A stretch of DNA of 34,620 bases from a virus (lineage: Duplodnaviria; Heunggongvirae; Uroviricota; Caudoviricetes), in IMG/VR virus record IMGVR_UViG_2529293040_000020. One strand, 5' to 3'. This document shows, one piece after another, positions 3,627 through 24,957 of the stretch; position 1 is the first letter of the stretch, and each line of letters opens with the position of its first letter. Under the pieces are notes generated by a model. It was not told the origin of the DNA, made no database searches, and saw only the letters and a list, made by a program, of their open reading frames with translations. The position numbers were made by a program, and so were the translations under genes.

Positions 3627-4194
3627 TATCGCGTCCTCAACAATGAATTTTGTGATGCAGTGCCTGGTGCCTCCAGGTGACGTTAACCAGTTAACAATTA
3701 ACGCCGGATACAGAGAATCCACCCATAACACTGTTTTTGGTTTTAACTGTTCCGCGTGCGCTCAGCCGCATTCACCACATCACAAAATTCACTTTAAAAA
3801 GGGCGGCAGAGCAGTCACGGAGTAAAACTGATACCGCCAAACGTCACCAGAAAATTGATAACAGAGGGCGTTGCAGCGGGGTTGTCACTTAAGCGTATGG
3901 TCAACCTGACAACCCGGTGTCCTCAACGGGGGAAGGAATAACCCCGCCATACTTACCGCCGCGCCATTTCGCGGATTGCCACAACCGGAAGCGCACGGTC
4001 GACGAAAATTTAACGACAGGCTATCTATGAACCAGCTACCTCGCCGTGCGCTTTCGCGTTATGGTCTGACTTTTCAGGGAAATATCCTTTCAGTAAACTG
4101 TCAGTGCCGGATGCTCACCCGTGTCCGGCGCACGCACTCCACCTCATCCGTGGAGAACTCCTTAATTACCAACCTTAGCTTCGTTGGTTAGCTA

Positions 4195-7940: not shown

Positions 7941-8335
7941 ATTAAAGAGCATTAGTTCAGATGTGAATTGACATTGTGTGGCACAGGGTTGGGCTAGCGT
8001 GGGGGTTTGCTTTGTGTAAGAAACGGATGCTCTGCAAATTACTACTAATGCTTAATGTTAGTCTGATCTGCTCCCCGATGATTAATACACCGCTATGTTA
8101 GTAATGTCTGTAGATCGCTGTGTGTTGCATCCATCGGTTGACCCCACAGTCCAAACCAGACTGTCAGCTTTGATTCGATTCTATCTACTCAACCTGTCAG
8201 GTAATGTCTGAGCTAATACACAGAGTACGGCTATCGCGAACTTTAAGCTAGGTATCTGATACGCACCGTTCACTTGGTCGTACTTCTTGCACTGACTAGC
8301 TATCGTGCGCAGTTATTTATAGGTAATCTCCAGTG

Positions 8336-8341
8336 TATAAT
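8336..8341 (+). promoter_or_regulatory. Consensus -10 hexamer TATAAT upstream of the 8380 gene
   Basis: gtgTATAATtttcc about 38 nt upstream of the ATG; no convincing -35. Confidence 0.25.
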
Positions 8342-8379
8342 TTTCCAACTTATGGGAGATTGTAAAACAGGAGGAATAT

Positions 8380-9226
8380 ATGAGGAAAAAATCGTTTGGA
8401 CGTTGCCCGTTTGATTTCGACGAAGATGTAAAAAAAATAGCCGCGATAAATAAATATATCCATGCGAAATTTGAGAGGCATAAAAATAAAATAGATAACC
8501 TAAAGGGGGTGGAACAAAAATTGATGGTTTTACATTACTTTAATGTACTGAATGAACTTAGTAATCAGGCTATATTTTCTTTGAGTACCGGAGCCTTTTC
8601 AGCATCGGAAGTATTAACTAGAGTTATAATGGAACAGGCTGCCAATCAATTTTATATAGCAATTGATGATGGAAAAAATGCACAAGCATTACTCAAGGGT
8701 AGTAAGAAATTAGTTCATAGTAATGGGAAACGGTGGCTGGAGTGTTTAAAATCCAAAGAAATGACTAATCCAGCAGCAGATGAAAGGATTCGTATCGGAA
8801 AAGAGCTAACTGATATGTTTAATAGATTGTGGCCAAATACACCTGAATATCCTGGAACCAAAAAGCTTTTCGAAGTAATTGGCTGGGAAACACACTATCA
8901 TGCCTATTACGTCCCTCTTTGTGATTCAATACATACATTCTCTGATGATATGGCAAATATAGTATCTCTATATAATGCAATCCAAAGCGATAAAACTACT
9001 GCTATCGAACTCACTCTTAGCAGTTAAACAAGAAAATAAACGGCTGGCAATTTATAATGTCGTAATTGCTATTGGCCTGCGGTGTGAGGCCTTAGTAAAT
9101 GTATTTAACTCTTTAGGTTATCGAGATATTATAACTGAAATGGCGCCAACAATAGATGCAGTCAACCAGATTATAATTCGATATGATGATTTCGAACATT
9201 CCAGAATTTTTATTGTCAATAATTAA
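8380..9226 (+). CDS. Unknown AT-rich island protein, read as 215-aa and 83-aa pieces that probably form one protein of about 280 aa (frame change between 8975 and 9027)
   Basis: Strong RBS (AGGAGG) before ATG 8380; second piece has no own RBS and starts inside the first; low GC compared with phage genes. Confidence 0.4.
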
Positions 9227-9279
9227 TTGGCAGAATTCGTACATGCACAACAACTAGTTATAGTTGACCTATTTCGCTC

Positions 9280-9848
9280 TTGAGAGACAACCATACTCAA
9301 ATCTTCCACATTGCAGGAGATTTGAGTATGAATACGTCACCGAGGAACAAAGACAGTATCATAGGCCCAAAAAGACCACTTCAGATATCTCATATCTGGG
9401 GGCTCCAAATCCGGCTTGAACTGGAAGGTAAAACGCGTGATTTAGCTCGGTTTCAAGCAGAGCTACGGTGCTGCAACTGAAAAACTGGCAGTCCTATCCA
9501 ATTTGAGATAACCAAAGGGACAAGAGAAGCTGTTTCTGCATTGATAAAGCTTGGCAATTTACGCAGTAAAGACTACTTGTTCCGATCTCGGGTCGGTACT
9601 AACCAACACATATCAATCCTGCAATATAACCGAATCTTTCATAGGGGGGAGAAAAGCTTGGTCTCGAAGATTCGCTTTACAGCACACATTCCATGAGAAG
9701 AACAAAACCTTGCCTTGTCTGCAAGAAAACTAAGAATCTCCGGGTGATCCAACTTCCGTTGGGCCATAAGAAAACGGAAAGCACAGTTCGTTATCTGGGT
9801 ATAGAAGTTGATGATGCATTAGAGATCTCTGAATCGATCGAAGTCTAA
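9280..9848 (+). pseudogene. Decayed tyrosine recombinase (integrase catalytic domain remnant) with several frameshifts and stops
   Basis: Across three frames: KRPLQISHIWGLQIRLELEGKTRDLA, PIQFEITKGTREAVSALIKL...DYLFRSRVGTNQHISILQYNRIF, FTAH(S)MRRTKP...KKTKNLRVIQLPLGHKKTESTVRYLGIEVDDALEISESIEV*; H-x-x-R and the catalytic RY motif are present. Confidence 0.55.
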
Positions 9849-9854
9849 AGCTGT

Positions 9855-9920
9855 CAGGGCTGCAGCAGCAGCCCTGTGCCAAGAGCGTACCAATATATGT
9901 CTCAAAAAATTGGGCACAGG
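9855..9920. repeat. Two overlapping inverted repeats immediately 3' of the recombinase remnant
   Basis: cagggctgc-agca-gcagccctg (9855-9876) and cctgtgcc ... ggcacagg (9873-9880 / 9913-9920). Confidence 0.4.
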
Positions 9921-10260
9921 TCAATATCAATACCAACAACTCTGATTGTGCTCATGTGATTTACTCCTGTAGAAAACGCAGACAGTAAAAATATTTCACT
10001 GGCTGCTTCAGACAGGGCGTCCATCATATCATTACATAACAATAGCGGGGCACGATATCTAGACATGCAGCAACGATGGACATAGAATGAGTACAATCAA
10101 AAGCATGTTTAACTACTTTAATTTAAAAATCTTAGAATCTTAGGTGTAGAGTTCAATACTTAGTTACATACCCTTTTGAAAGCATCACAAATCATAACTA
10201 TGAGCCTGTTAAAGGCATAGGTATTCTTAATTAAGAGCATTTTAATGAGAGAAAAATAAA

Positions 10261-11633
10261 ATGAAAAGACTATATTATACCCATCATGATAGTCGAACCT
10301 TAAAACTTGCTATAGAAGGTGATGTTTCTGATAATGCGAATATTTTTACAGTAATTGTAGGTAAAAATGGCGTTGGAAAAAGCAGATTGTTATCTCAGAT
10401 TGCTAAAGACTGTATTCAAGATATTCATTTCTTGAAAACTTTTAATCCATTATTTGACAGAGAAATAACACCAAAGTTAATTGCCGTATCTACCAGCCCA
10501 TTCGATAAATTCCCTCCAGGGCGTAGGTCATTAAATCACCAAAGGAAAGAAAATAATTATCGCTATGTGGGTATGCGTGGAGAAGGCCCCTTCGGCGTAT
10601 CAAATGCCGTATCCCTTTTATCTTCAGCAGCGAGAGGTTGGCTAGAGAAACTTGCTTATTCAGAAAATCCTGCAAATTTACTCGATGTTTTTCATTCTAT
10701 TGATTTTGAGCCCCATATAGAGTTTGTATTTAAACCAACTTACAACGGACCGGACACTCCTGACTATAACTTCATTGGTGTATATTCAGATGAGATATTA
10801 ACGGAAGTTAAGGAGTTATATTTAAAATACAATATAAAAATTGACAGGAAGAATATTGAGAGTCTCTTAAAGTTAAACTCCGAATCACGTCATGATATTT
10901 ACGAAGCACTGGTTGAAATTAATCGATTTGAACCTGAACGTAGGGCTGTAACCTTGTCAGTCGATTTTACCAATGGTGAAACATTGGTTGGCTCGACTTA
11001 TGCGAATAATTATTTTTCTAGATCAATTCTTAAACTTATGAACGCTGGCTTCATGAGATTGATGGATATGCGACTCATAAAAAAAGCTATGGTCCCATGT
11101 CACTTAAACGTGCGAGCTCGGGAGAACAATGTTTATTAGTGATGTTGCTTGGAATTGCAGGGCATATAACTGATGGTTCTATAATACTAATTGATGAACC
11201 GGAAATAAGCTTGCATCCTCGATGGCAGGAAGAGTTTATCATTATGTTAACAAAAGCATTTTTAACTTACTCAGGTTGTCAATTCATAATTGCAACTCAT
11301 TCACCACAAATAATATCCAATTTGCCGAATAAAGGTTGTTATATAACATCTTTGTCGAAAAGTTATCTTTATAAAGCAAAATACTTTAGCAACCGGTCTG
11401 CAGACTATCAACTTGCGGAACTATTTGATGCCCCTGGCATTATGAATGAATACATTGCCAGATTAGCTTTCAATTTACTTTCAAAAGTTAAGACTGCTAA
11501 GTTAGTAACAGATGATAATTGGCGTGAATTAAAACAACTCCAGCTTCTCCTTGAAAACGTTAATAGTAATGACCCTATTAATGAACTCGTAAATTCCGTA
11601 TCTCAGGTGTGTGAAATTTATGCCAAAAATTAA
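10261..11633 (+). CDS. ABC/AAA15-type ATPase (Septu PtuA-like candidate), read in two frames with the shift at or near an A7 run (11079-11085)
   Basis: Walker A VIVGKNGVGKS in 10261-11139; ABC signature SSGEQ, Walker B IILIDEPE and H-loop IATHSP in 11097-11633; frames are open in parallel between about 11034 and 11139. Confidence 0.7.
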
Positions 11634-12255
11634 AAATCCAATTAGATTCAGCGCAGAGTCATTAGATATTATTGAGAAAAAATTGTCTTCTCCAGATTTT
11701 AAGCATACCAACTGGGGAGATGATGATTTGCAAGTTCTCCGTGCAGAAATTAGAAATCATTACAGAGAAGAACAAAAGCTAGAATGTGTATATTGTCATG
11801 AGCCTATTGGGGTAAGAGCTGCACAAGCTGCTCCTATAGAGCATATTGTGCCAAAATCTCAATATCTATGTTTTATTTTTGAACCTAAGAATCTATGTGT
11901 AGTATGTCCTGACTGCAATGAATTCAAAGGTAAAAATGAAGTGTTATTTGAACCCGTAATAAATGGGGGGCGGCGCAAAAACTATCCAACTGCATCTGCA
12001 TCATTTCGCATCGTTCATCCACATATAGATGATTATGAGATGCATATTATAAAAGCAAATCGTGTTTATGTGGACAAAACACCTAAAGGGCACTATACCA
12101 TTGGAATATGTAAACTAAATAGATTTTTTCATTATTTTGGGATGTGTGATGAATTTGTTAATGATGCAAAAATTGCTGAGGCAAATGAAAATTTTTTCAA
12201 AAAAGGTAGTATTACTACTAATGAATTATTGGATGATGACATTCATTTGATTTAA
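11611..12255 (+). CDS. HNH endonuclease (Septu PtuB-like candidate)
   Basis: CVYCHEPIG...IEHIVPKSQ...CVVCPDCNEFKG (Cys/His HNH pattern); start overlaps the ATPase stop, indicating a co-translated operon. Confidence 0.7.
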   Translation: MKFMPKIKNPIRFSAESLDIIEKKLSSPDFKHTNWGDDDLQVLRAEIRNHYREEQKLECVYCHEPIGVRAAQAAPIEHIVPKSQYLCFIFEPKNLCVVCPDCNEFKGKNEVLFEPVINGGRRKNYPTASASFRIVHPHIDDYEMHIIKANRVYVDKTPKGHYTIGICKLNRFFHYFGMCDEFVNDAKIAEANENFFKKGSITTNELLDDDIHLI

Positions 12256-12509
12256 CTATGAATTATTATATTGTAAAGTAATCAGGTAAGATATGTTAGA
12301 CAGTGAGACTATTGCCTTACAGAATTCATTATTCTTATGGATCGCCTTTCTGACTGATTTCATATTGGCGGGGTAACGGGAGTTAAGTAGAATGGCTGCG
12401 GGTGCTTGAGGCTATCTGTCTCAGGCATGAACACCAAAGGCAGATAGAGAAAAGCCCCAGTTAACATTACGCGTCCTGCAAGACGCTTAACATTAATCTG
12501 AGGCCAATT

Positions 12510-13595
12510 TCATGCTAGACACATGTAGGTTAGCCTCTTACGTGCCGGAAGGCAAGGAGATGTATGGGTCCACCACATATTGCAATTTTTATTCTCTTTT
12601 AAAATATATTCCACGGGCGTCATTAGTGCGAGCGCCTTGTGGGGCTTTTGCTGTTATACAGCACCAGATATTCCGCCAGCTTCTGGTTAAATAGCGCCAG
12701 ATCTTCAAAGAGTAAAATCTCATTAAATTCAATAAACTGCTCTCTTAACGTCCGGTTAAAACGTTCACAGATAGCGTTCATTTTGGCGTGTAGGGATAGG
12801 TCCAGAGGTGTTTGATAGCGGCTTCCTGCAGCGTTTTGTCGAAGTTTCCCAGGAACTCTTTTCCGCTATCTGTGATTATCTGGCTGATACCGACCGGGAA
12901 CAACCGGGCTGCGCGGCTGAAGAAGTGATTGACGATATCACTGTTGAGTGACGGCACAGCCAGCGCCAGCGCGTAATTGCTGCATTCGTCGATCATGGTG
13001 ATGACATAGCGACGCAGTTCGCCCATTCTGAGCTCAATGGCGTCCATCCCAATGAGCTCACCTGTCTTTACCGGGCGGTAGTGCTTTGGCCTGCGGGGTT
13101 TGGCAGACCGCTTTTTGACAAGCAGTGCCTTCCCCCGCGATCCCAGACGCACAGGTATCATCCGCATTTTATCATGTGCGGCAGCGATCATTCTGCCGAT
13201 GGTGGAAACACTCGGACAGGCCAGATAGCGCTGTTCGCACCAGGGCTTCAGGCGAACAAAAATCTGCTCTTTACCGAGGTTCGGCAGCTCTGTCCTGAGG
13301 CGTCGAATCTCTTTCAGCACATCGGGATGCCAGTGTTTTTTCGTCGCACCAGAGGTGCCTTACTGTGCGGGATTAGCCCCTCAGGTCCTTCCTTGTTCAG
13401 TAACTGACGCCACCAGTAAAGCGTGCGGCAGGACACGCCAAAGGCTTCAGAAGCTGCAGAAATACCGTGTTTATCCCAGAAGTGCAGAGCCTTCATTCTC
13501 ATTGTTGCTATATCAGCCATCACTGAAAGCCTCAACGCATAATCGGCCGTTTGGTAGTACTTAGGATAGCCAACCATCAGATGCTGCATTTGCAT
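12510..13595 (-). mobile_element. IS481-like DDE (rve) transposase gene with at least three frame disruptions; IS ends not defined
   Basis: N-terminal HTH (ALHFWDKHGISAASEAFGVSCRTLYWWRQLL), DDE core (KHYRPVKTGELIGMDAIE...ITDSGKEF...MNAICERFNRTLREQ), C-terminus PHKALALMTPVEYILKENK; shifts at T6 13336-13341, near 12785 and near 12600. Confidence 0.5.
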
Positions 13596-13666
13596 AGTGC
13601 AATCTCCCCTTACTTATCCGGAGGCAATTGCAATATCTCTGTGAACTTACACAGGAGAAGCAGGCT

Positions 13667-13822
13667 ATGAAGCAGCAAAAGGCGATGTTAATCGCCCTGA
13701 TCGTCATCTGTTTAACCGTCATAGTGACGACACTGGTAACGAGGAAAGACCTCTGCGAGGTACGAATCCGAACCGGCCAGACGGAGGCCGCTGTCTTCAC
13801 AGCTTACGAACCTGAGGAGTAA
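13667..13822 (+). CDS. hok: Hok/Gef family type I toxin (HokD/RelF-like)
   Basis: MKQQKAMLIALIVICLTVIVTTLVTRKDLCEVRIRTGQTEAAVFTAYEPEE is near-identical to HokD as recalled. Confidence 0.8.
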   Translation: MKQQKAMLIALIVICLTVIVTTLVTRKDLCEVRIRTGQTEAAVFTAYEPEE

Positions 13823-14038: not shown

Positions 14039-14275
14039 ATGATGAACATCGAAGAACTGCGTAAAATTTTTTGTGAAGATGGCCTCTATGCTGTGTGCGT
14101 TGAAAATGGAAATCTTGTTAGTCATTACCGCATTATGTGTTTGCGAAAGAATGGGGCTGCGTTAATTAATTTTGTGGATGGTCGAGTGACAGACGGATTT
14201 ATCTTGCGCGAAGGTGAGTTTGTCACTTCATTACAGGCACTGAAAGAGATCGGAATAAAAGCAGGCTTTTCGTAA
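14039..14275 (+). CDS. Hypothetical small protein whose last codons are replaced by the IS66 insertion
   Basis: ORF MMNIEELRKIFCEDGLYAVCVENG...; stop codon is supplied by the IS left end; without the IS the frame would read ...KAGFSAFAEE*. Confidence 0.4.
   Translation: MMNIEELRKIFCEDGLYAVCVENGNLVSHYRIMCLRKNGAALINFVDGRVTDGFILREGEFVTSLQALKEIGIKAGFS
14264..14271. repeat. Left copy of the 8-bp target site duplication GGCTTTTC of the IS66-family element
   Basis: Identical 8-mer directly abuts both ends of the element. Confidence 0.75.
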
Positions 14276-14324
14276 CCGGCTCATTTAAACCGTCTGGTCT
14301 GTTTCCTCCGGCTCTACAAAAATA

Positions 14325-15001
14325 ATGTCCATCATTTTTAATGGACACTATCGTATGAAACACCGGACCTGGATCACTGAAGCTTTACGTCTTCACTTTG
14401 AAGAACATTTACCCCGGGTTGTGGCCGGGCGTCGCCTGGGTGTACCAAAATCAACAGTTTGTAGTATGTTCGTGCGCTTTCGGAGAGCTGGCCTTTCGTG
14501 GCCTTTGCCCGCAGGCATGTCGGAGCAGGAACTTGATGCCTGCCTTTACGGACAATTTTCCACGGTACCAGTCGTACGTCCTGAAAGCACCGTTATATCC
14601 GAAGCCCCCGTGGTAAAAAAACGTCCCCGGCGGCCCAACTTCCCTTATGAGTTTAAAATCGCCTTAGTGGAGCAGTCACTGCAGCCCGGAGCCTGTGTGG
14701 CGCAGATCGCCCGGGAAAACGGAATCAACGATAACCTGCTCTTCAACTGGCGCCATCAATACCGGAAAGGTGGCCTGCTGCCTTCCGGAAAAATATGCCG
14801 GCACTGCTTCCCGTGACGTTAACGCCGGAGCCGGATAATAAAATCCCGGCCCCCGCACAGGAACCAGAGCAGATAAATACACCGTCCGACAGTCTGTGTT
14901 GTGAGCTGGTTCTGCCGGCCGGAACTCTCAGGCTTAAAGGTAAACTGACGCCGGCGTTATTACAGACACTTATCCGCGAAATAAAAGGGAGCAGCCACTG
15001 A
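14325..15001 (+). CDS. tnpA: IS66 accessory protein TnpA (HTH), read in two frames with the change near 14795-14816
   Basis: KRPRRPNFPYEFKIALVEQSLQPGACVAQIARENGINDNLLFNWRHQYRKG (transposase_8-type HTH) then other frame PALLPVTLTPEP...; A7 run at 14613-14619. Confidence 0.5.
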
Positions 15002-15348
15002 TGATATCTCTCCCTGCAGGTTCGCGTATCTGGCTGGTTGCAGGTATCACCGATATGCGAAATGGCTTTAACGGCCTGGCATCAAAAGTTCAGAACGTCC
15101 TGAAGGATGACCCGTTCTCCGGACACCTGTTCATCTTCCGCGGACGCCGGGGTGACCAGATAAAAGTGTTGTGGGCTGACAGTGACGGACTGTGCCTCTT
15201 CACCAAACGCCTGGAGCGGGGCCGCTTCGTCTGGCCAGTCACCCGTGACGGCAAGGTGCACCTTACTCCGGCTCAGTTATCCATGCTTCTTGAAGGTATC
15301 AACTGGAAGCACCCGAAACGAACGGAACGCGCTGGAATCCGCATATAA
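15001..15348 (+). CDS. tnpB: IS66 Orf2-like protein TnpB
   Basis: MISLPAGSRIWLVAGITDMRNGFNGLASKVQNVLKDDPFSGHLFIFRGRRGDQIKVLWADSDGLCLFTKRLERGRFVWP is the characteristic IS66 TnpB sequence. Confidence 0.85.
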   Translation: MISLPAGSRIWLVAGITDMRNGFNGLASKVQNVLKDDPFSGHLFIFRGRRGDQIKVLWADSDGLCLFTKRLERGRFVWPVTRDGKVHLTPAQLSMLLEGINWKHPKRTERAGIRI

Positions 15349-15367
15349 CCCGTTGTAAAGTGAGGAT

Positions 15368-16939
15368 ATGGACACCTCACTTGCTCATGAGAACGCCCGC
15401 CTGCGGGCACTGTTGCAGACGCAACAGGACACCATCCGCCAGATGGCTGAATACAACCGCCTGCTCTCACAGCGGGTGGCGGCTTATGCTTCCGAAATCA
15501 ACCGGCTGAAGGCGCTGGTTGCGAAACTGCAACGTATGCAGTTCGGTAAAAGCTCAGAAAAACTTCGTGCAAAAACCGAACGGCAGATACAGGAAGCACA
15601 GGAGCGAATCAGCGCACTTCAGGAAGAAATGGCGGAAACGCTGGGTGAGCAATATGACCCGGTACTGCCATCCGCCCTGCGCCAGTCTTCAGCCCGTAAA
15701 CCGTTACCGGCCTCACTTCCCCGTGAAACCCGGGTTATCCGGCCGGAAGAGGAATGCTGTCCTGCCTGTGGTGGTGAACTCAGTTCTCTGGGATGTGATG
15801 TGTCAGAGCAACTGGAGCTTATCAGCAGCGCCTTTAAGGTTATCGAAACACAACGTCCGAAACAGGCCTGTTGCCGGTGCGACCATATCGTGCAGGCACC
15901 AGTACCTTCAAAACCCATTGCACGCAGTTATGCCGGAGCGGGGCTTCTGGCCCATGTTGTCACCGGGAAATATGCAGACCATCTGCCGTTATACCGCCAG
16001 TCAGAAATATACCGTCGTCAGGGCGTGGAGCTGAGCCGTGCCACACTGGGGCGCTGGACAGGTGCTGTTGCTGAACTGCTGGAGCCGCTGTATGACGTCC
16101 TGCGCCAGTATGTGCTGATGCCCGGTAAAGTCCATGCTGATGATATCCCCGTCCCGGTCCAGGAGCCGGGCAGCGGTAAAACCCGGACAGCCCGGCTGTG
16201 GGTCTACGTCCGTGATGACCGTAACGCCGGTTCACAGATGCCCCCGGAGGTCTGGTTCGCGTACAGTCCGGACCGGAAAGGTATCCATCCACAAAATCAC
16301 CTGGCCGGTTACAGCGGTGTGCTTCAGGCCGATGCTTACGGTGGTTACCGGGCGTTATACGAATCCGGCAGAATAACGGAAGCCGCGTGTATGGCTCATG
16401 CCCGGAGAAAAATCCACGATGTGCATGCAAGAGCGCCCACCTACATCACCACGGAAGCCCTGCAGCGTATCGGTGAACTGTATGCCATCGAGGCAGAGGT
16501 CCGGTGCTGTTCAGCAGAACAGCGTCTGGCGGCAAGAAAAGCCAGAGCCGCGCCACTGATGCAGTCACTGTATGACTGGATACAGCAACAGATGAAAACA
16601 CTGTCGCGTCACTCAGATACGGCAAAAGCGTTCGCATACCTGCTGAAACAGTGGGATGCACTGAACGTGTACTGCAGTAATGGCTGGGTGGAAATCGACA
16701 ACAACATCGCAGAGAACGCCTTACGGGGAGTGGCCGTAGGCCGGAAAAACTGGATGTTCGCGGGTTCCGACAGCGGTGGTGAACATGCGGCGGTGTTGTA
16801 CTCGCTGATCGGCACATGCCGTCTGAACAATGTGGAGCCAGAAAAGTGGCTGCGTTACGTCATTGAACATATCCAGGACTGGCCGGCAAACCGGGTACGC
16901 GATCTGTTGCCCTGGAAAGTTGATCTGAGCTCTCAGTAA
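15368..16939 (+). CDS. tnpC: IS66-family transposase TnpC
   Basis: 523 aa; N-terminal coiled coil, zinc finger CPACGGEL...CRCDH, DDE region typical of IS66 TnpC. Confidence 0.85.
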
Positions 16940-16969
16940 ATATCAATACGGTTCTGACGAGTCGCTTAC

Positions 16970-19975: not shown

Positions 19976-21025
19976 ATGATTAATACTGTAAAAATATCCA
20001 GTTGTGAGTTAATCAACGCTGATTGCCTGGAATTTATCCAGACCTTACCGGAAAACTCTGTCGATCTGATAGTCACAGACCCGCCATACTTTAAAGTGAA
20101 GCCCGAGGGCTGGGATAACCAGTGGGAGGGCGACGATGATTACCTGAAATGGCTGGACCAGTGTCTGGCGCAGTTCTGGCGGGTACTGAAGCCTGCCGGA
20201 AGTCTTTACCTGTTCTGTGGTCATCGCCTGGCATCTGACACCGAAATCATGATGCGTGAGCGCTTTAATGTGCTGAACCACATTATCTGGGCGAAGCCGT
20301 CCGGACGCTGGAACGGGTGCAATAAGGAAAGTCTGCGGGCGTATTTTCCGGCAACAGAGCGCATTCTGTTTGCAGAACATTATCAGGGACCGTATCGCCC
20401 GAAAGATGATGGCTATGTGGCACAGGGGCGCGAGCTAAAACAGCACGTCATGGCCCCGCTGATTTCTTACTTTCGTGATGCGCGTAAATCACTGGGAATA
20501 ACGTCAAAACAGATAGCGGAAGCCACCGGAAAGAAAAACATGGCTTCGCACTGGTTTGGTACCAGTCAGTGGCAGTTACCGAACGAGGGTAATTACAACA
20601 AATTGCAGGCGTTGTTTGCGCGTGTTGCGGCAGAAAAACATCAGCGCGGGGAACTGGAAAAGCCACACCACCAGCTGGTCAGCACATACAGTGAGCTGAA
20701 CCGGCAGTATACGGAACTGCTGAGTGAATATAAAAATTTGCGGCGGTATTTCGGTGTGACGGCGCAGGTTCCGTACACCGATGTCTGGACGCATAAACCG
20801 GTGCAGTACTATCCAGGGAAACATCCGTGCGAAAAACCGGCAGAAATGCTGCAGCAGATAATCAACGCGAGCAGTCGTCCGGGAGACCTGGTTGCAGATT
20901 TTTTTATGGGTTCAGGTTCAACGGTAAAAGCGGCGATGGCACTGGGGCGTTGTGCGATTGGTGTTGAGCTGGAGACAGGACGTTTTGAACAGACAGTCAG
21001 GGAAGTTCAGGATTTAATCGTTTGA
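19976..21025 (+). CDS. Phage DNA methyltransferase (N6-adenine/N4-cytosine type)
   Basis: DPPY motif (LIVTDPPYFKV) and C-terminal AdoMet-binding motif (ADFFMGSGST); sits between Q and the tRNA cluster. Confidence 0.75.
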   Translation: MINTVKISSCELINADCLEFIQTLPENSVDLIVTDPPYFKVKPEGWDNQWEGDDDYLKWLDQCLAQFWRVLKPAGSLYLFCGHRLASDTEIMMRERFNVLNHIIWAKPSGRWNGCNKESLRAYFPATERILFAEHYQGPYRPKDDGYVAQGRELKQHVMAPLISYFRDARKSLGITSKQIAEATGKKNMASHWFGTSQWQLPNEGNYNKLQALFARVAAEKHQRGELEKPHHQLVSTYSELNRQYTELLSEYKNLRRYFGVTAQVPYTDVWTHKPVQYYPGKHPCEKPAEMLQQIINASSRPGDLVADFFMGSGSTVKAAMALGRCAIGVELETGRFEQTVREVQDLIV

Positions 21026-21074: not shown

Positions 21075-21150
21075 GGCCCTTTAGCTCAGTGGTGAGAGCG
21101 AGCGACTCATAATCGCCAGGTCGCTGGTTCAAATCCAGCAAGGGCCACCA
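21075..21150 (+). tRNA. ileZ: tRNA with CAU anticodon, Ile2 (lysidine) type, ileZ-like
   Basis: Cloverleaf by eye: acceptor ggccctt/aagggcc, D-arm gctc-agtggtga-gagc, anticodon loop ctCATaa, T-loop ttcaaat, 3' ACCA; close to E. coli ileX-type tRNA. Confidence 0.7.
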
Positions 21151-21247: not shown

Positions 21248-21324
21248 GCGTTGTTAGCTCAGCCGGACAGAGCAATTGCCTTCTAAGCAATCGGTCACTG
21301 GTTCGAATCCAGTACAACGCGCCA
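21248..21324 (+). tRNA. argO: tRNA-Arg (anticodon UCU)
   Basis: Acceptor gcgttgt/acaacgc, D-arm gctc-agccggaca-gagc, anticodon stem attgc/gcaat with loop ctTCTaa, T-loop ttcgaat, 3' GCCA. Confidence 0.75.
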
Positions 21325-21788: not shown

Positions 21789-22220
21789 ATACATATCTGG
21801 ATTATCACCTGTTACGGTAAAAAGTGATTGCTTACTGTTTTTGTGAATGGCATTGCAGCAGCCGGATAATGTCAGTGCTGGCTGACTGTGTACTGGTGGC
21901 GGGTGTGGTGGTTGTTGCTTTCCCGTTGCTGAAAAAGAAAACGCCAGACTGTTAGTCGGAGAAATTTTTAAATACTTCACAATTCAGGCGGTTGACTGTT
22001 GTCTGGTTTGCGGGGAGTTTGTTAAAAGAAACTGGCATGGTGAATCCACCTGTGCGGAGGGGCAATCAGCGAGTAGGTATATGGGATAATCGCGGATTCA
22101 GGTGCTGGTACTGAATTCACCGGGAGGCACCCGGCACCATGCAATGGCACATAGCGCCACTCTCCAGCCCCTCTCCGGAGGGGCTGTTTATATTGATTTT
22201 GTCAGATGTGAGTAAACTCC

Positions 22221-24703: not shown

Positions 24704-24957
24704 TAAAACGGGTAGATGTACTTCACATGATACTTATACTTGGCAGTACATTTTCTGACAGACAGTGACGGATGTTGTCAAGATATTGTGTCATTTATAA
24801 CCTGAATCAGGGGTTGGCCGGAATGTTATCTGGCATTTTTAGCAGAGCCTGAATGCCATAATCACGGCTCCCGGCGTTGGCCGTCAGTGGGTGACACTGG
24901 CGGCTTTTTGTTTTCTTACTTTCATTTTCTGTCGGCGGTGACGGAGACATACATCAG

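What the first reader, a model, noticed from the sequence alone, without database searches (positions are those of the whole stretch)
10261..12255. ATPase + HNH nuclease operon inside the prophage: candidate Septu-like defence cassette
Seen: the 10261-11139 ORF carries a Walker A P-loop (VIVGKNGVGKS); the overlapping 11097-11633 ORF carries an ABC-type signature (SSGEQ), Walker B (IILIDEPE) and H-loop (IATHSP); the next ORF (11611-12255) overlaps the ATPase stop and has an HNH pattern (CVYCHEP...IEHIVPKSQ...CVVCPDCNEFKG). Established: an ABC/AAA15-type ATPase followed by an HNH nuclease is the Septu (PtuA/PtuB) architecture, and prophages often carry such cassettes as morons between replication and nin/Q genes. 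Inference: this is a superinfection-exclusion or anti-phage module. Whether it is a known Septu subtype or a divergent family cannot be decided by eye.
Basis: partly seen in the sequence, partly recalled or inferred. Interest (0 to 1): 0.85.

Follow-up and report, generated by a model that had tools for sequence, protein, structure and literature searches.

The report
Prophage Septu defence cassette, ATPase frameshifted
This is an ordinary, already-catalogued Septu anti-phage gene pair (PtuA ATPase plus PtuB HNH nuclease) carried by a lambda-like prophage of E. coli; its ATPase reads as two pieces only because one base is missing from a run of eight A's, most likely a draft-assembly error.

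Summary
Bases 10261-12255 encode an ABC-type ATPase, split over two frames, followed by an overlapping HNH nuclease. After adding back one A, the 457-aa ATPase matches PADLOC PtuA end to end (E 1.9e-165) and the nuclease matches PtuB (E 1.1e-83). No retron reverse transcriptase or ncRNA is present, so this is a stand-alone type I Septu. It lies in a 36% GC island between replication gene P and hok/rem/rusA of a lambdoid prophage that is 99.9% identical to one in EPEC E2348/69, where ptuA is intact. The split is an A8-to-A7 change at 11079-11085. The window matches the E. coli DEC2A draft, which carries 14 other indels in 24 kb, and the chance that an A/T run is shortened rises with run length. 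The A7 here is therefore most likely an assembly error. The same tract is nevertheless A7 on at least six haplotypes, and A9 once, in other assemblies, six of which have no other indel, so it is also a real mutational hot spot. This clade differs from the three E. coli PtuAB pairs studied experimentally and appears untested. The mechanism (PtuA oligomer holding PtuB, nuclease released on infection, abortive infection) is inferred from those relatives. Interest is low.

The parts
10261..11139 (+). ptuA 5' part. Native residues 1-275 (Walker A G34-S41 at 10360-10383, catalytic K40, and the helical insertion), followed by 17 out-of-frame residues and a stop.
   Evidence: The exact 292-aa product is on record from E. 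coli DEC2A and CP148282.
11079..11085 (+). A7 homopolymer, the site of the frameshift. It is A8 in E2348/69 and in 18 of 19 complete E. coli genomes that carry the cassette.
11086..11633 (+). ptuA 3' part in the -1 frame (residues S276-N457; the listed ORF starts at M280 = 11097). It holds the signature SSGEQ (11115-11129), Walker B IILIDEPE (11181-11204; D312/E313), the H-loop IATHSP (11289-11306; H347) and three predicted C-terminal helices (residues 392-456), the likely PtuB-binding extension.
   Evidence: The C-terminal-extension role is inferred from PMC12819146.
11620..12255 (+). ptuB, HNH nuclease of 211 aa. It has a C56/C59/C96/C99 cysteine set, catalytic H75, and N91 and N100. Its start overlaps the end of ptuA by 14 nt.
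8300..12420 (.). AT-rich island (36% GC against about 48% in the flanking prophage). It holds a DUF5677 gene (8380-9226), a tyrosine-recombinase remnant (9328-9848) and ptuAB, and is probably the unit in which the cassette was acquired.

Best explanation
The region is a stand-alone type I Septu anti-phage module. ptuA encodes an ABC-type ATPase and ptuB, translationally overlapping it, encodes an HNH nuclease. The pair is carried as an accessory cassette in a lambdoid prophage of an EPEC-lineage E. coli; the window matches the DEC2A draft. By inference from characterised PtuAB systems, PtuA oligomerises through its ATPase heads and helical insertion and holds PtuB through its three-helix C-terminal extension. 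ATP binding or hydrolysis, which needs K40, D312/E313, the signature Q290 and H347, keeps the complex in check. Infection by another phage releases PtuB nuclease activity, either nicking DNA or cleaving tRNA-Tyr, and this aborts the infection and protects the lysogen population. The ATPase appears as two ORFs only because an A8 tract reads as A7. In this draft that is most probably an undercalled homopolymer, so the real strain likely has an intact, functional ptuA. The same tract also truly slips in nature and is the commonest way this gene is lost.
For: Identity is shown. PADLOC gives PtuA E 1.9e-165 (residues 2-455 against profile 3-447 of 448) and PtuB E 1.1e-83. Pfam gives AAA_21, AAA_15 and HNH. 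In 35-sequence alignments spanning 42-90% identity, the catalytic residues are invariant: PtuA G34, K40, S41, S286-Q290, D312, E313, H347, and PtuB C56, C59, H75, N91, C96, C99, N100. The AF2 model of PtuA (pLDDT 82) has its top 35 PDB matches all to PtuA chains of retron I-A or E. coli Septu 8EEA (E 1e-9 to 1e-6), followed by AriA. The operon is conserved: ptuA-ptuB with the same 14-nt overlap occurs at a Klebsiella prophage end, beside a Dickeya GTPase-type conflict island and in a P. putida defence island. It is stand-alone: no retron ncRNA, and no ORF matching a reverse transcriptase in the ORFs scanned. The prophage setting is shown. The frameshift is probably an artefact here: the window shares every indel with the DEC2A draft L030; it has 15 indels against 20 substitutions relative to E2348/69; nearly all indels are deletions; and the hit rate rises with A/T run length (2/92 for runs of 5, 2/30 for 6, 2/4 for 7, 2/3 for 8 or more). 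Among unbiased samples the tract is A8 in 18 of 19 complete genomes and 8 of 8 IMG/VR loci. The mechanism comes from relatives. Walker A/B and HNH mutants abolish defence and tRNA-Tyr is cut in the variable loop for Septu EcB88 (PMC13096335). The hexameric PtuA assembly, ATP-sensitive DNA nicking and the nine-helix PtuA-CTE/PtuB bundle are described in PMC12819146.
Against: No functional data exist for this clade. The three E. coli PtuAB pairs studied experimentally (retron Eco7, EcB88, ATCC 25922) have clearly different sequences, and by sequence the solved PtuA chains match only about 55-100 residues around the signature and Walker B motifs. The PtuB model was poor (pLDDT 69, lowest in the HNH core) and its fold matches were not significant. 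TM-scores for PtuA were low (0.2-0.37). As written, the window encodes a broken ptuA, and A7 is a real allele in other strains, so a true pseudogene cannot be excluded. The promoter scan gave no more sites than shuffled sequence. The trigger and the nuclease substrate are unknown.
Confidence: 0.8

Rival explanations
1. The frameshift is genuine in this strain. ptuA is a pseudogene and the Septu module is switched off, as part of the general decay of a defective prophage that has also taken up IS481-family and IS66-family insertions.
For: A7 alleles exist in assemblies that have no other indel over 2.3-4 kb (L021, L022, L023, L027, L029), and L028 carries A9. They lie on at least six SNP haplotypes, most with an A8 counterpart. 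One of 19 complete genomes (CP148282) has A7 as the only indel in the well-aligned cassette region. The prophage in the window carries two IS insertions and other split genes.
Against: The window's other indels follow a run-length-dependent, almost deletion-only pattern typical of homopolymer undercalling. The indel-to-substitution ratio of 15:20 against a near-identical relative is implausible for real evolution. The natural frequency of A7 is only a few percent.
Confidence: 0.15
2. The A8 tract is a functional switch. Either it is a phase-variable contingency locus that turns Septu on and off by slippage, or A7 alleles still make some full-length PtuA by -1 ribosomal or transcriptional slippage on A_AAA_AAA.
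For: Tract length changes recur in both directions (A7 and A9) on several haplotypes. The tract is retained in a Klebsiella allele of 86% protein identity. In the A7 allele a -1 slip on CTC ATA AAA AAA GCT would reproduce exactly the intact protein sequence ...LIKKSYGPM....
Against: Off alleles make up only about 3-5% of sequences (1 of 19 complete genomes, 0 of 8 IMG/VR loci; 24-31 contigs with the split product against 473 contigs with the exact intact PtuA and at least 1000 with the exact PtuB), unlike balanced phase-variable loci. The tract is absent in the Dickeya and P. putida homologues. The RNA downstream of the slip site folds no better than shuffles (z +0.73) and no Shine-Dalgarno-like stimulator lies upstream. 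From general knowledge, A8 runs in mismatch-repair-proficient E. coli slip too rarely for classical phase variation.
Confidence: 0.05
3. It is a different ATPase-nuclease system that merely resembles Septu, for example PARIS, an OLD or Gabija-type system, a retron effector pair or an AbiEii-type toxin-antitoxin pair.
For: By sequence the best PDB hit of the ATPase is PARIS AriA (E 1.5e-12 for the single sequence, 3.3e-17 for the profile). The Pfam AAA_21 family is described as 'putative AbiEii toxin'. NCBIfam hits to retron Ec78 PtuA and PtuB fall far below their cut-offs.
Against: The AriA and other non-Septu matches cover only the signature/Walker B segment, whereas the PtuA profile match is end to end and over 450 bits higher. 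The partner is an HNH nuclease, not a Toprim/DUF4435 AriB. No ncRNA was found and no reverse transcriptase among the ORFs scanned. No Toprim domain is fused to the ATPase.
Confidence: 0.03

Closest known systems
Septu type I sub-clade represented by PADLOC profiles PDLC00283 (PtuA) and PDLC00325 (PtuB)
   Same: Both proteins match end to end (549 and 278 bits). The two genes are adjacent, on the same strand and overlapping. All catalytic motifs are present.
   Different: In this window ptuA is interrupted by a 1-nt deletion. I found no experimental work on this sub-clade.
E. coli ATCC 25922 Septu (PtuA 465 aa, PtuB 243 aa; the same lengths as the chains of PDB 8EE4, 8EE7, 8EEA and 8SUX)
   Same: It is also a stand-alone ABC-ATPase plus HNH pair. 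The PtuA fold is related (Foldseek probability 1.0, E 3e-7 to 9e-6). The C-terminal helical extension and the HNH core are shared in outline.
   Different: Sequence similarity is confined to about 55 residues of PtuA (E 3e-7 single sequence, 3e-11 profile) and is marginal for PtuB (E 0.014). PMC12819146 reports that the stand-alone Septu PtuA has Leu at the signature-motif Gln position and lacks ATPase activity, whereas here that Gln (Q290) is invariant, which suggests an active ATPase. PtuB here is 32 aa shorter.
Septu EcB88 of E. coli JBBDAGI-19-0041 (PMC13096335)
   Same: It has the same two-gene architecture and similar sizes (452 and 219 aa). Defence there needs Walker A/B and the HNH residues. 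It offers a testable model: abortive infection through tRNA-Tyr variable-loop cleavage.
   Different: The sequences are clearly different (alignment in the paper's supplement). The shared PtuB H75/N91 numbering is a coincidence. Whether this clade also targets tRNA-Tyr is unknown.
Retron type I-A (Eco7/Ec78, Ec83) PtuAB effectors
   Same: These give the best fold matches for PtuA (E 2e-9) and the best PDB profile matches for PtuB (9n69_F, E 4.9e-6). The signature motif carries the canonical Gln, as here.
   Different: No reverse transcriptase or msr/msd ncRNA is present. PtuA here is about 90 aa shorter; the N-terminal extension and DNA-binding flap described for retron PtuA were not looked for.
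PARIS AriA
   Same: It is the highest-scoring solved sequence over the signature, Walker B and H-loop segment.
   Different: The match is partial only. The PARIS partner AriB is a Toprim nuclease, not an HNH nuclease.

Membership tests
Septu type I (PtuA + PtuB) | A PtuA-family ABC-type ATPase | tested here: met
   PADLOC PDLC00283, E 1.9e-165, covering 2-455 of 457 residues. Pfam AAA_21 and AAA_15 above cut-off. The nearest solved folds are PtuA chains.
Septu type I (PtuA + PtuB) | A PtuB-family HNH nuclease | tested here: met
   PADLOC PDLC00325, E 1.1e-83, full length. Pfam HNH scores 23.9 bits against a cut-off of 21.4. C56, C59, H75, N91, C96, C99 and N100 are invariant.
Septu type I (PtuA + PtuB) | The two genes are adjacent and co-oriented as one operon | tested here: met
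   The ptuB ATG at 11620 overlaps the ptuA stop at 11631-11633. The same 14-nt overlap occurs in Klebsiella, Dickeya and P. putida.
Septu type I (PtuA + PtuB) | Uninterrupted reading frames | tested here: not met
   ptuA is split at the A7 tract at 11079-11085. It is intact in E2348/69 and in 18 of 19 complete genomes. In this draft the break is probably an assembly error. This concerns the state of this copy, not its family assignment.
Septu type I (PtuA + PtuB) | Protects against phage, dependent on the ATPase and HNH motifs | not testable with these tools
   This has been shown only for other clades (PMC13096335). It needs plaque assays.
Septu type I (PtuA + PtuB) | A PtuA oligomer that binds PtuB through its C-terminal extension | not tested
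   Only monomer models were made. Three C-terminal helices in PtuA (392-456) and three in PtuB (155-195) are compatible with the nine-helix bundle described in PMC12819146.
Retron type I-A | A reverse transcriptase and an msr/msd ncRNA next to ptuAB | tested here: not met
   There is no Rfam retron hit in the window. The neighbours are a DUF5677 gene, a recombinase remnant and sok/IS481.
PARIS (AriA/AriB) | A Toprim/DUF4435 AriB partner | tested here: not met
   The partner is an HNH protein. The AriA similarity is limited to about 75 residues.

The most novel reading that the evidence does not exclude
The A8 tract inside ptuA could be a slippage-prone contingency site. It would let lysogens reversibly silence a costly abortive-infection module, or retain low-level expression from A7 alleles through -1 slippage. 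That would make this a phase-variable Septu carried by a prophage. The evidence shows recurrent A7 and A9 alleles on several haplotypes, but it does not show reversibility, a high switching rate or selection for the tract.
Probability: 0.06. Interest if true: 0.5.

Novelty: already known. Interest (0 to 1): 0.2.

Why it matters
The main value is correct annotation. RefSeq labels these genes only 'AAA family ATPase' and 'HNH endonuclease', and in the DEC2A draft the ATPase is called as fragments, so automated defence-system counts can miss it. It is one more example of a lambdoid prophage carrying a defence cassette between its replication and nin/Q regions, in a well-studied EPEC lineage (E2348/69). 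Two modest points could be followed up. First, this Septu clade keeps a canonical signature-motif glutamine and is distinct from the three E. coli PtuAB pairs studied so far, so it would be a useful comparison for the question of ATP control and substrate (DNA or tRNA-Tyr). Second, its A8 tract is a recurrent loss-of-function hot spot.

Tried and rejected
1. Programmed -1 frameshifting at A_AAA_AAA. The 65 nt downstream fold no better than shuffles (z +0.73) and there is no upstream SD-like element, so this was rejected as a designed feature.
2. Retron association. No ncRNA was found, and no reverse transcriptase among the ORFs scanned.
3. The DUF5677 gene as a third Septu component. It has no significant PADLOC hit and is not a neighbour of ptuAB in Klebsiella, Dickeya or P. 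putida, so this was rejected.
4. Identity with the tested Septu EcB88, suggested by the shared PtuB H75/N91 numbering. The supplementary alignment shows unrelated sequences, so this was rejected.
5. PtuB fold comparison. The model was of low confidence and no match had E <= 0.001, so the result is inconclusive, although the top-ranked matches were retron PtuB chains and Cas9 HNH domains.
6. Sequenced phage genomes. No full-length homologue was found by megablast or tblastn in INPHARED; the cassette appears only in prophage-derived IMG/VR contigs.
7. Promoter and terminator scan. The counts equal those from shuffled sequence, so it was uninformative.
A natural variant with one substitution (T60A), P0047, was used instead.

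Full report
WHAT IS IN THE SEQUENCE. ORF listing and direct reading confirm three overlapping + strand ORFs: 10261-11139, 11097-11633 and 11611-12255. These are Walker A GKNGVGKS (10360-10383), signature SSGEQ (11115-11129), Walker B IILIDEPE (11181-11204), H-loop IATHSP (11289-11306), and the HNH elements CVYCHEP, IEHIVPKSQ and KNLCVVCPDCNEFKG (11785-11931). The first two ORFs are one gene. The frame changes at a run of seven A's (11079-11085), and inserting one A gives a continuous 457-aa protein. The nuclease most likely starts at ATG 11620 (211 aa), overlapping the ATPase stop by 14 nt. That is the RefSeq start in E2348/69 and it fits the profile alignment.

WHAT IT IS. The repaired ATPase matches PADLOC PtuA profile PDLC00283 end to end (E 1.9e-165), and the nuclease matches PtuB profile PDLC00325 (E 1.1e-83). 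All other defence families score far lower and only over the signature/Walker B segment. Pfam gives AAA_21 and AAA_15, and HNH, above their gathering scores. NCBIfam retron-type PtuA and PtuB models hit only weakly and below cut-off. More than 1500 homologues exist, as single ORFs of about 457 aa in Klebsiella, Dickeya, Cronobacter, Pseudomonas, Vibrio and others. In alignments spanning 42-90% identity, the invariant residues are Walker A G34, K40 and S41, signature S286-Q290, Walker B D312 and E313, and H347 in PtuA, and C56, C59, H75, N91, C96, C99 and N100 in PtuB. An AlphaFold2 model of PtuA (pLDDT 82) finds only PtuA chains among its top 35 PDB matches (retron I-A complexes and E. coli Septu 8EEA; E 1e-9 to 1e-6), followed by PARIS AriA. 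TM-scores are low (0.2-0.37), as expected for a multi-lobed protein modelled as a monomer. The PtuB model was weak (pLDDT 69) and its matches to retron PtuB and Cas9 HNH domains were not significant. A PtuB profile does reach retron PtuB chains (E 4.9e-6) and, marginally, Septu PtuB 8EE7 (E 0.014) in the PDB. Rfam finds no retron ncRNA, and none of the ORFs scanned is a reverse transcriptase. The module is therefore a stand-alone type I Septu.

CONTEXT. The window is 99.9% identical to a lambdoid prophage next to potC in EPEC E2348/69. The gene order there is int, xis, exo, dicB/DicF, ydfABC, repressor/cro, ydaT, a DnaT-like gene, P, then DUF5677, a recombinase remnant and ptuA-ptuB, then sok, IS481, hokD, rem, DUF968, rusA, DUF1133, a methyltransferase, tRNAs, and lysis genes. 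The block from about 8300 to 12420 is 36% GC against about 48% on either side, consistent with an acquired cassette. Only 19 of 5426 complete E. coli genomes carry it. No sequenced phage in INPHARED does, but eight prophage-derived IMG/VR contigs do. In Klebsiella variicola the pair lies at a prophage end near tail genes, in Dickeya beside a GTPase-type conflict island, and in P. putida among other defence-type ATPases, always with the same 14-nt overlap and without the DUF5677 gene. The functional unit is therefore the two genes.

THE FRAMESHIFT. In E2348/69 ptuA is intact and the tract is A8. The window shares every one of its indels with the E. coli DEC2A draft contig AIFA01000040.1 (L030), including the IS66 insertion, so that draft is evidently its source. 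Against E2348/69 the window has 20 substitutions but 15 indels in 24 kb. Nearly all the indels are single-base deletions. The probability that an A/T run is shortened rises steeply with its length: 0/205 for runs of 4, 2/92 for 5, 2/30 for 6, 2/4 for 7 and 2/3 for 8 or more. These indels also split the exonuclease, DUF5677 and IS481 transposase genes. This is the signature of homopolymer undercalling, so in this window the A7 is most likely an artefact.

The tract also varies for real. Looking up the 178-aa C-terminal product found 24-31 further contigs with the same split. A7 lies on at least six different SNP haplotypes, most of which also occur with A8, and one contig has A9. Five A7 contigs and the A9 contig have no other indel over 2.3-4 kb. 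An allele only 88% identical at the protein level shows the same lesion. In unbiased samples the split is rare: 1 of 19 complete genomes and 0 of 8 IMG/VR loci. The exact intact protein is on 473 contigs and the exact 292-aa fragment on 2. The tract is present in the Klebsiella allele but not in Dickeya or P. putida, and nothing downstream would stimulate programmed frameshifting. The simplest reading is a mutational hot spot created by the codons ATA AAA AAA AGC, not a designed switch.

HOW IT PROBABLY WORKS (inferred from relatives, not shown here). In characterised systems PtuA is an ABC ATPase that oligomerises and binds PtuB through a C-terminal helical extension, two of which sandwich the helical C-terminal domain of one PtuB. 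Stand-alone Septu forms a hexameric assembly whose DNA-nicking activity is inhibited by ATP, and it is reported to be triggered by a phage tail fibre (PMC12819146). [quoted passage not shown] The present PtuA model ends in three helices (392-456) and the PtuB model in three helices (155-195), which is compatible with that interface. The ATCC 25922-type PtuA is reported to have Leu at the signature Gln position and to lack ATPase activity. This clade instead keeps an invariant Q290, so I expect a hydrolysing ATPase. With the frameshift, the 292-aa product lacks the signature, Walker B, H-loop and C-terminal extension, so an A7 allele should be inactive.

COMPARISON AND NOVELTY. The cassette is a member of a catalogued Septu sub-clade. 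It is not close to any of the three E. coli PtuAB pairs studied experimentally (retron Eco7, EcB88, ATCC 25922), whose sequences differ clearly, and I found no paper on the E2348/69-type system. Standard defence finders would call it, so I rate it as already known and of low interest. The recurrent A-tract lesion is a minor curiosity.

Noticed in passing
window 12400-12566 (sok), 12561-13652 (IS481-family element), 13667-13822 (hokD): The IS481-family element has terminal inverted repeats (TGTA..ATATTGCAAT) and a 6-bp target duplication. It lies between the sok/mok leader and the hokD ORF, about 10 nt upstream of the hok start, and probably uncouples the hok/sok module. E2348/69 has the same insertion; CP148282 does not.
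   Followed up: partly
window 14272-16969: An IS66-family element (HTH/TnpA-like ORF, TnpB, 523-aa DDE transposase) is inserted between rem and the DUF968 gene. It has an apparent 8-bp target duplication and is absent from E2348/69.
   Followed up: partly
window 8380-9226 and 9328-9848: A DUF5677 gene lies in the same AT-rich island as ptuAB. It is 280 aa in E2348/69 and is split here by a +1 indel and a -1 indel. It is followed by a degraded tyrosine recombinase. DUF5677 has no significant defence-profile hit and does not travel with ptuAB in other genera, and its function is unknown.
   Followed up: partly
L001 13107 (= window about 9207), T6 run at the 3' end of the DUF5677 gene: This T6 run is shortened to T5 not only in the window but also in L008, L010 and L024, so it may be a second recurrent homopolymer variant rather than an error.
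   Followed up: no
window-wide (for example 49, 2325, 9019, 9207, 12645, 12781, 13336, 19226, 19385, 19498): Fifteen indels against E2348/69 split the exonuclease, DUF5677, ptuA and IS481 transposase genes. The pattern indicates that the source draft (E. coli DEC2A, AIFA01000040.1) has systematic homopolymer undercalls, so any frameshift in this window should be treated with suspicion.
   Followed up: yes
window 3801-3852 (-), 22006-22195 (+), 21075-21150 and 21248-21324 (+): The window holds a DicF sRNA next to dicB, an STnc100 sRNA, and two prophage tRNAs. One has a CAT anticodon (RefSeq annotates it as tRNA-Ile) and the other is Arg-TCT. They lie downstream of a 349-aa orphan-type DNA methyltransferase (19976-21025; PADLOC MTase_II, E 2.6e-159). 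There is no tRNA-Tyr, the substrate of some Septu systems.
   Followed up: no
window about 24905-24909 against L001 26112-28378: E2348/69 carries ISEc13 (IS4-like) and IS200C between the SASA esterase gene and the holin gene. The window lacks both.
   Followed up: no
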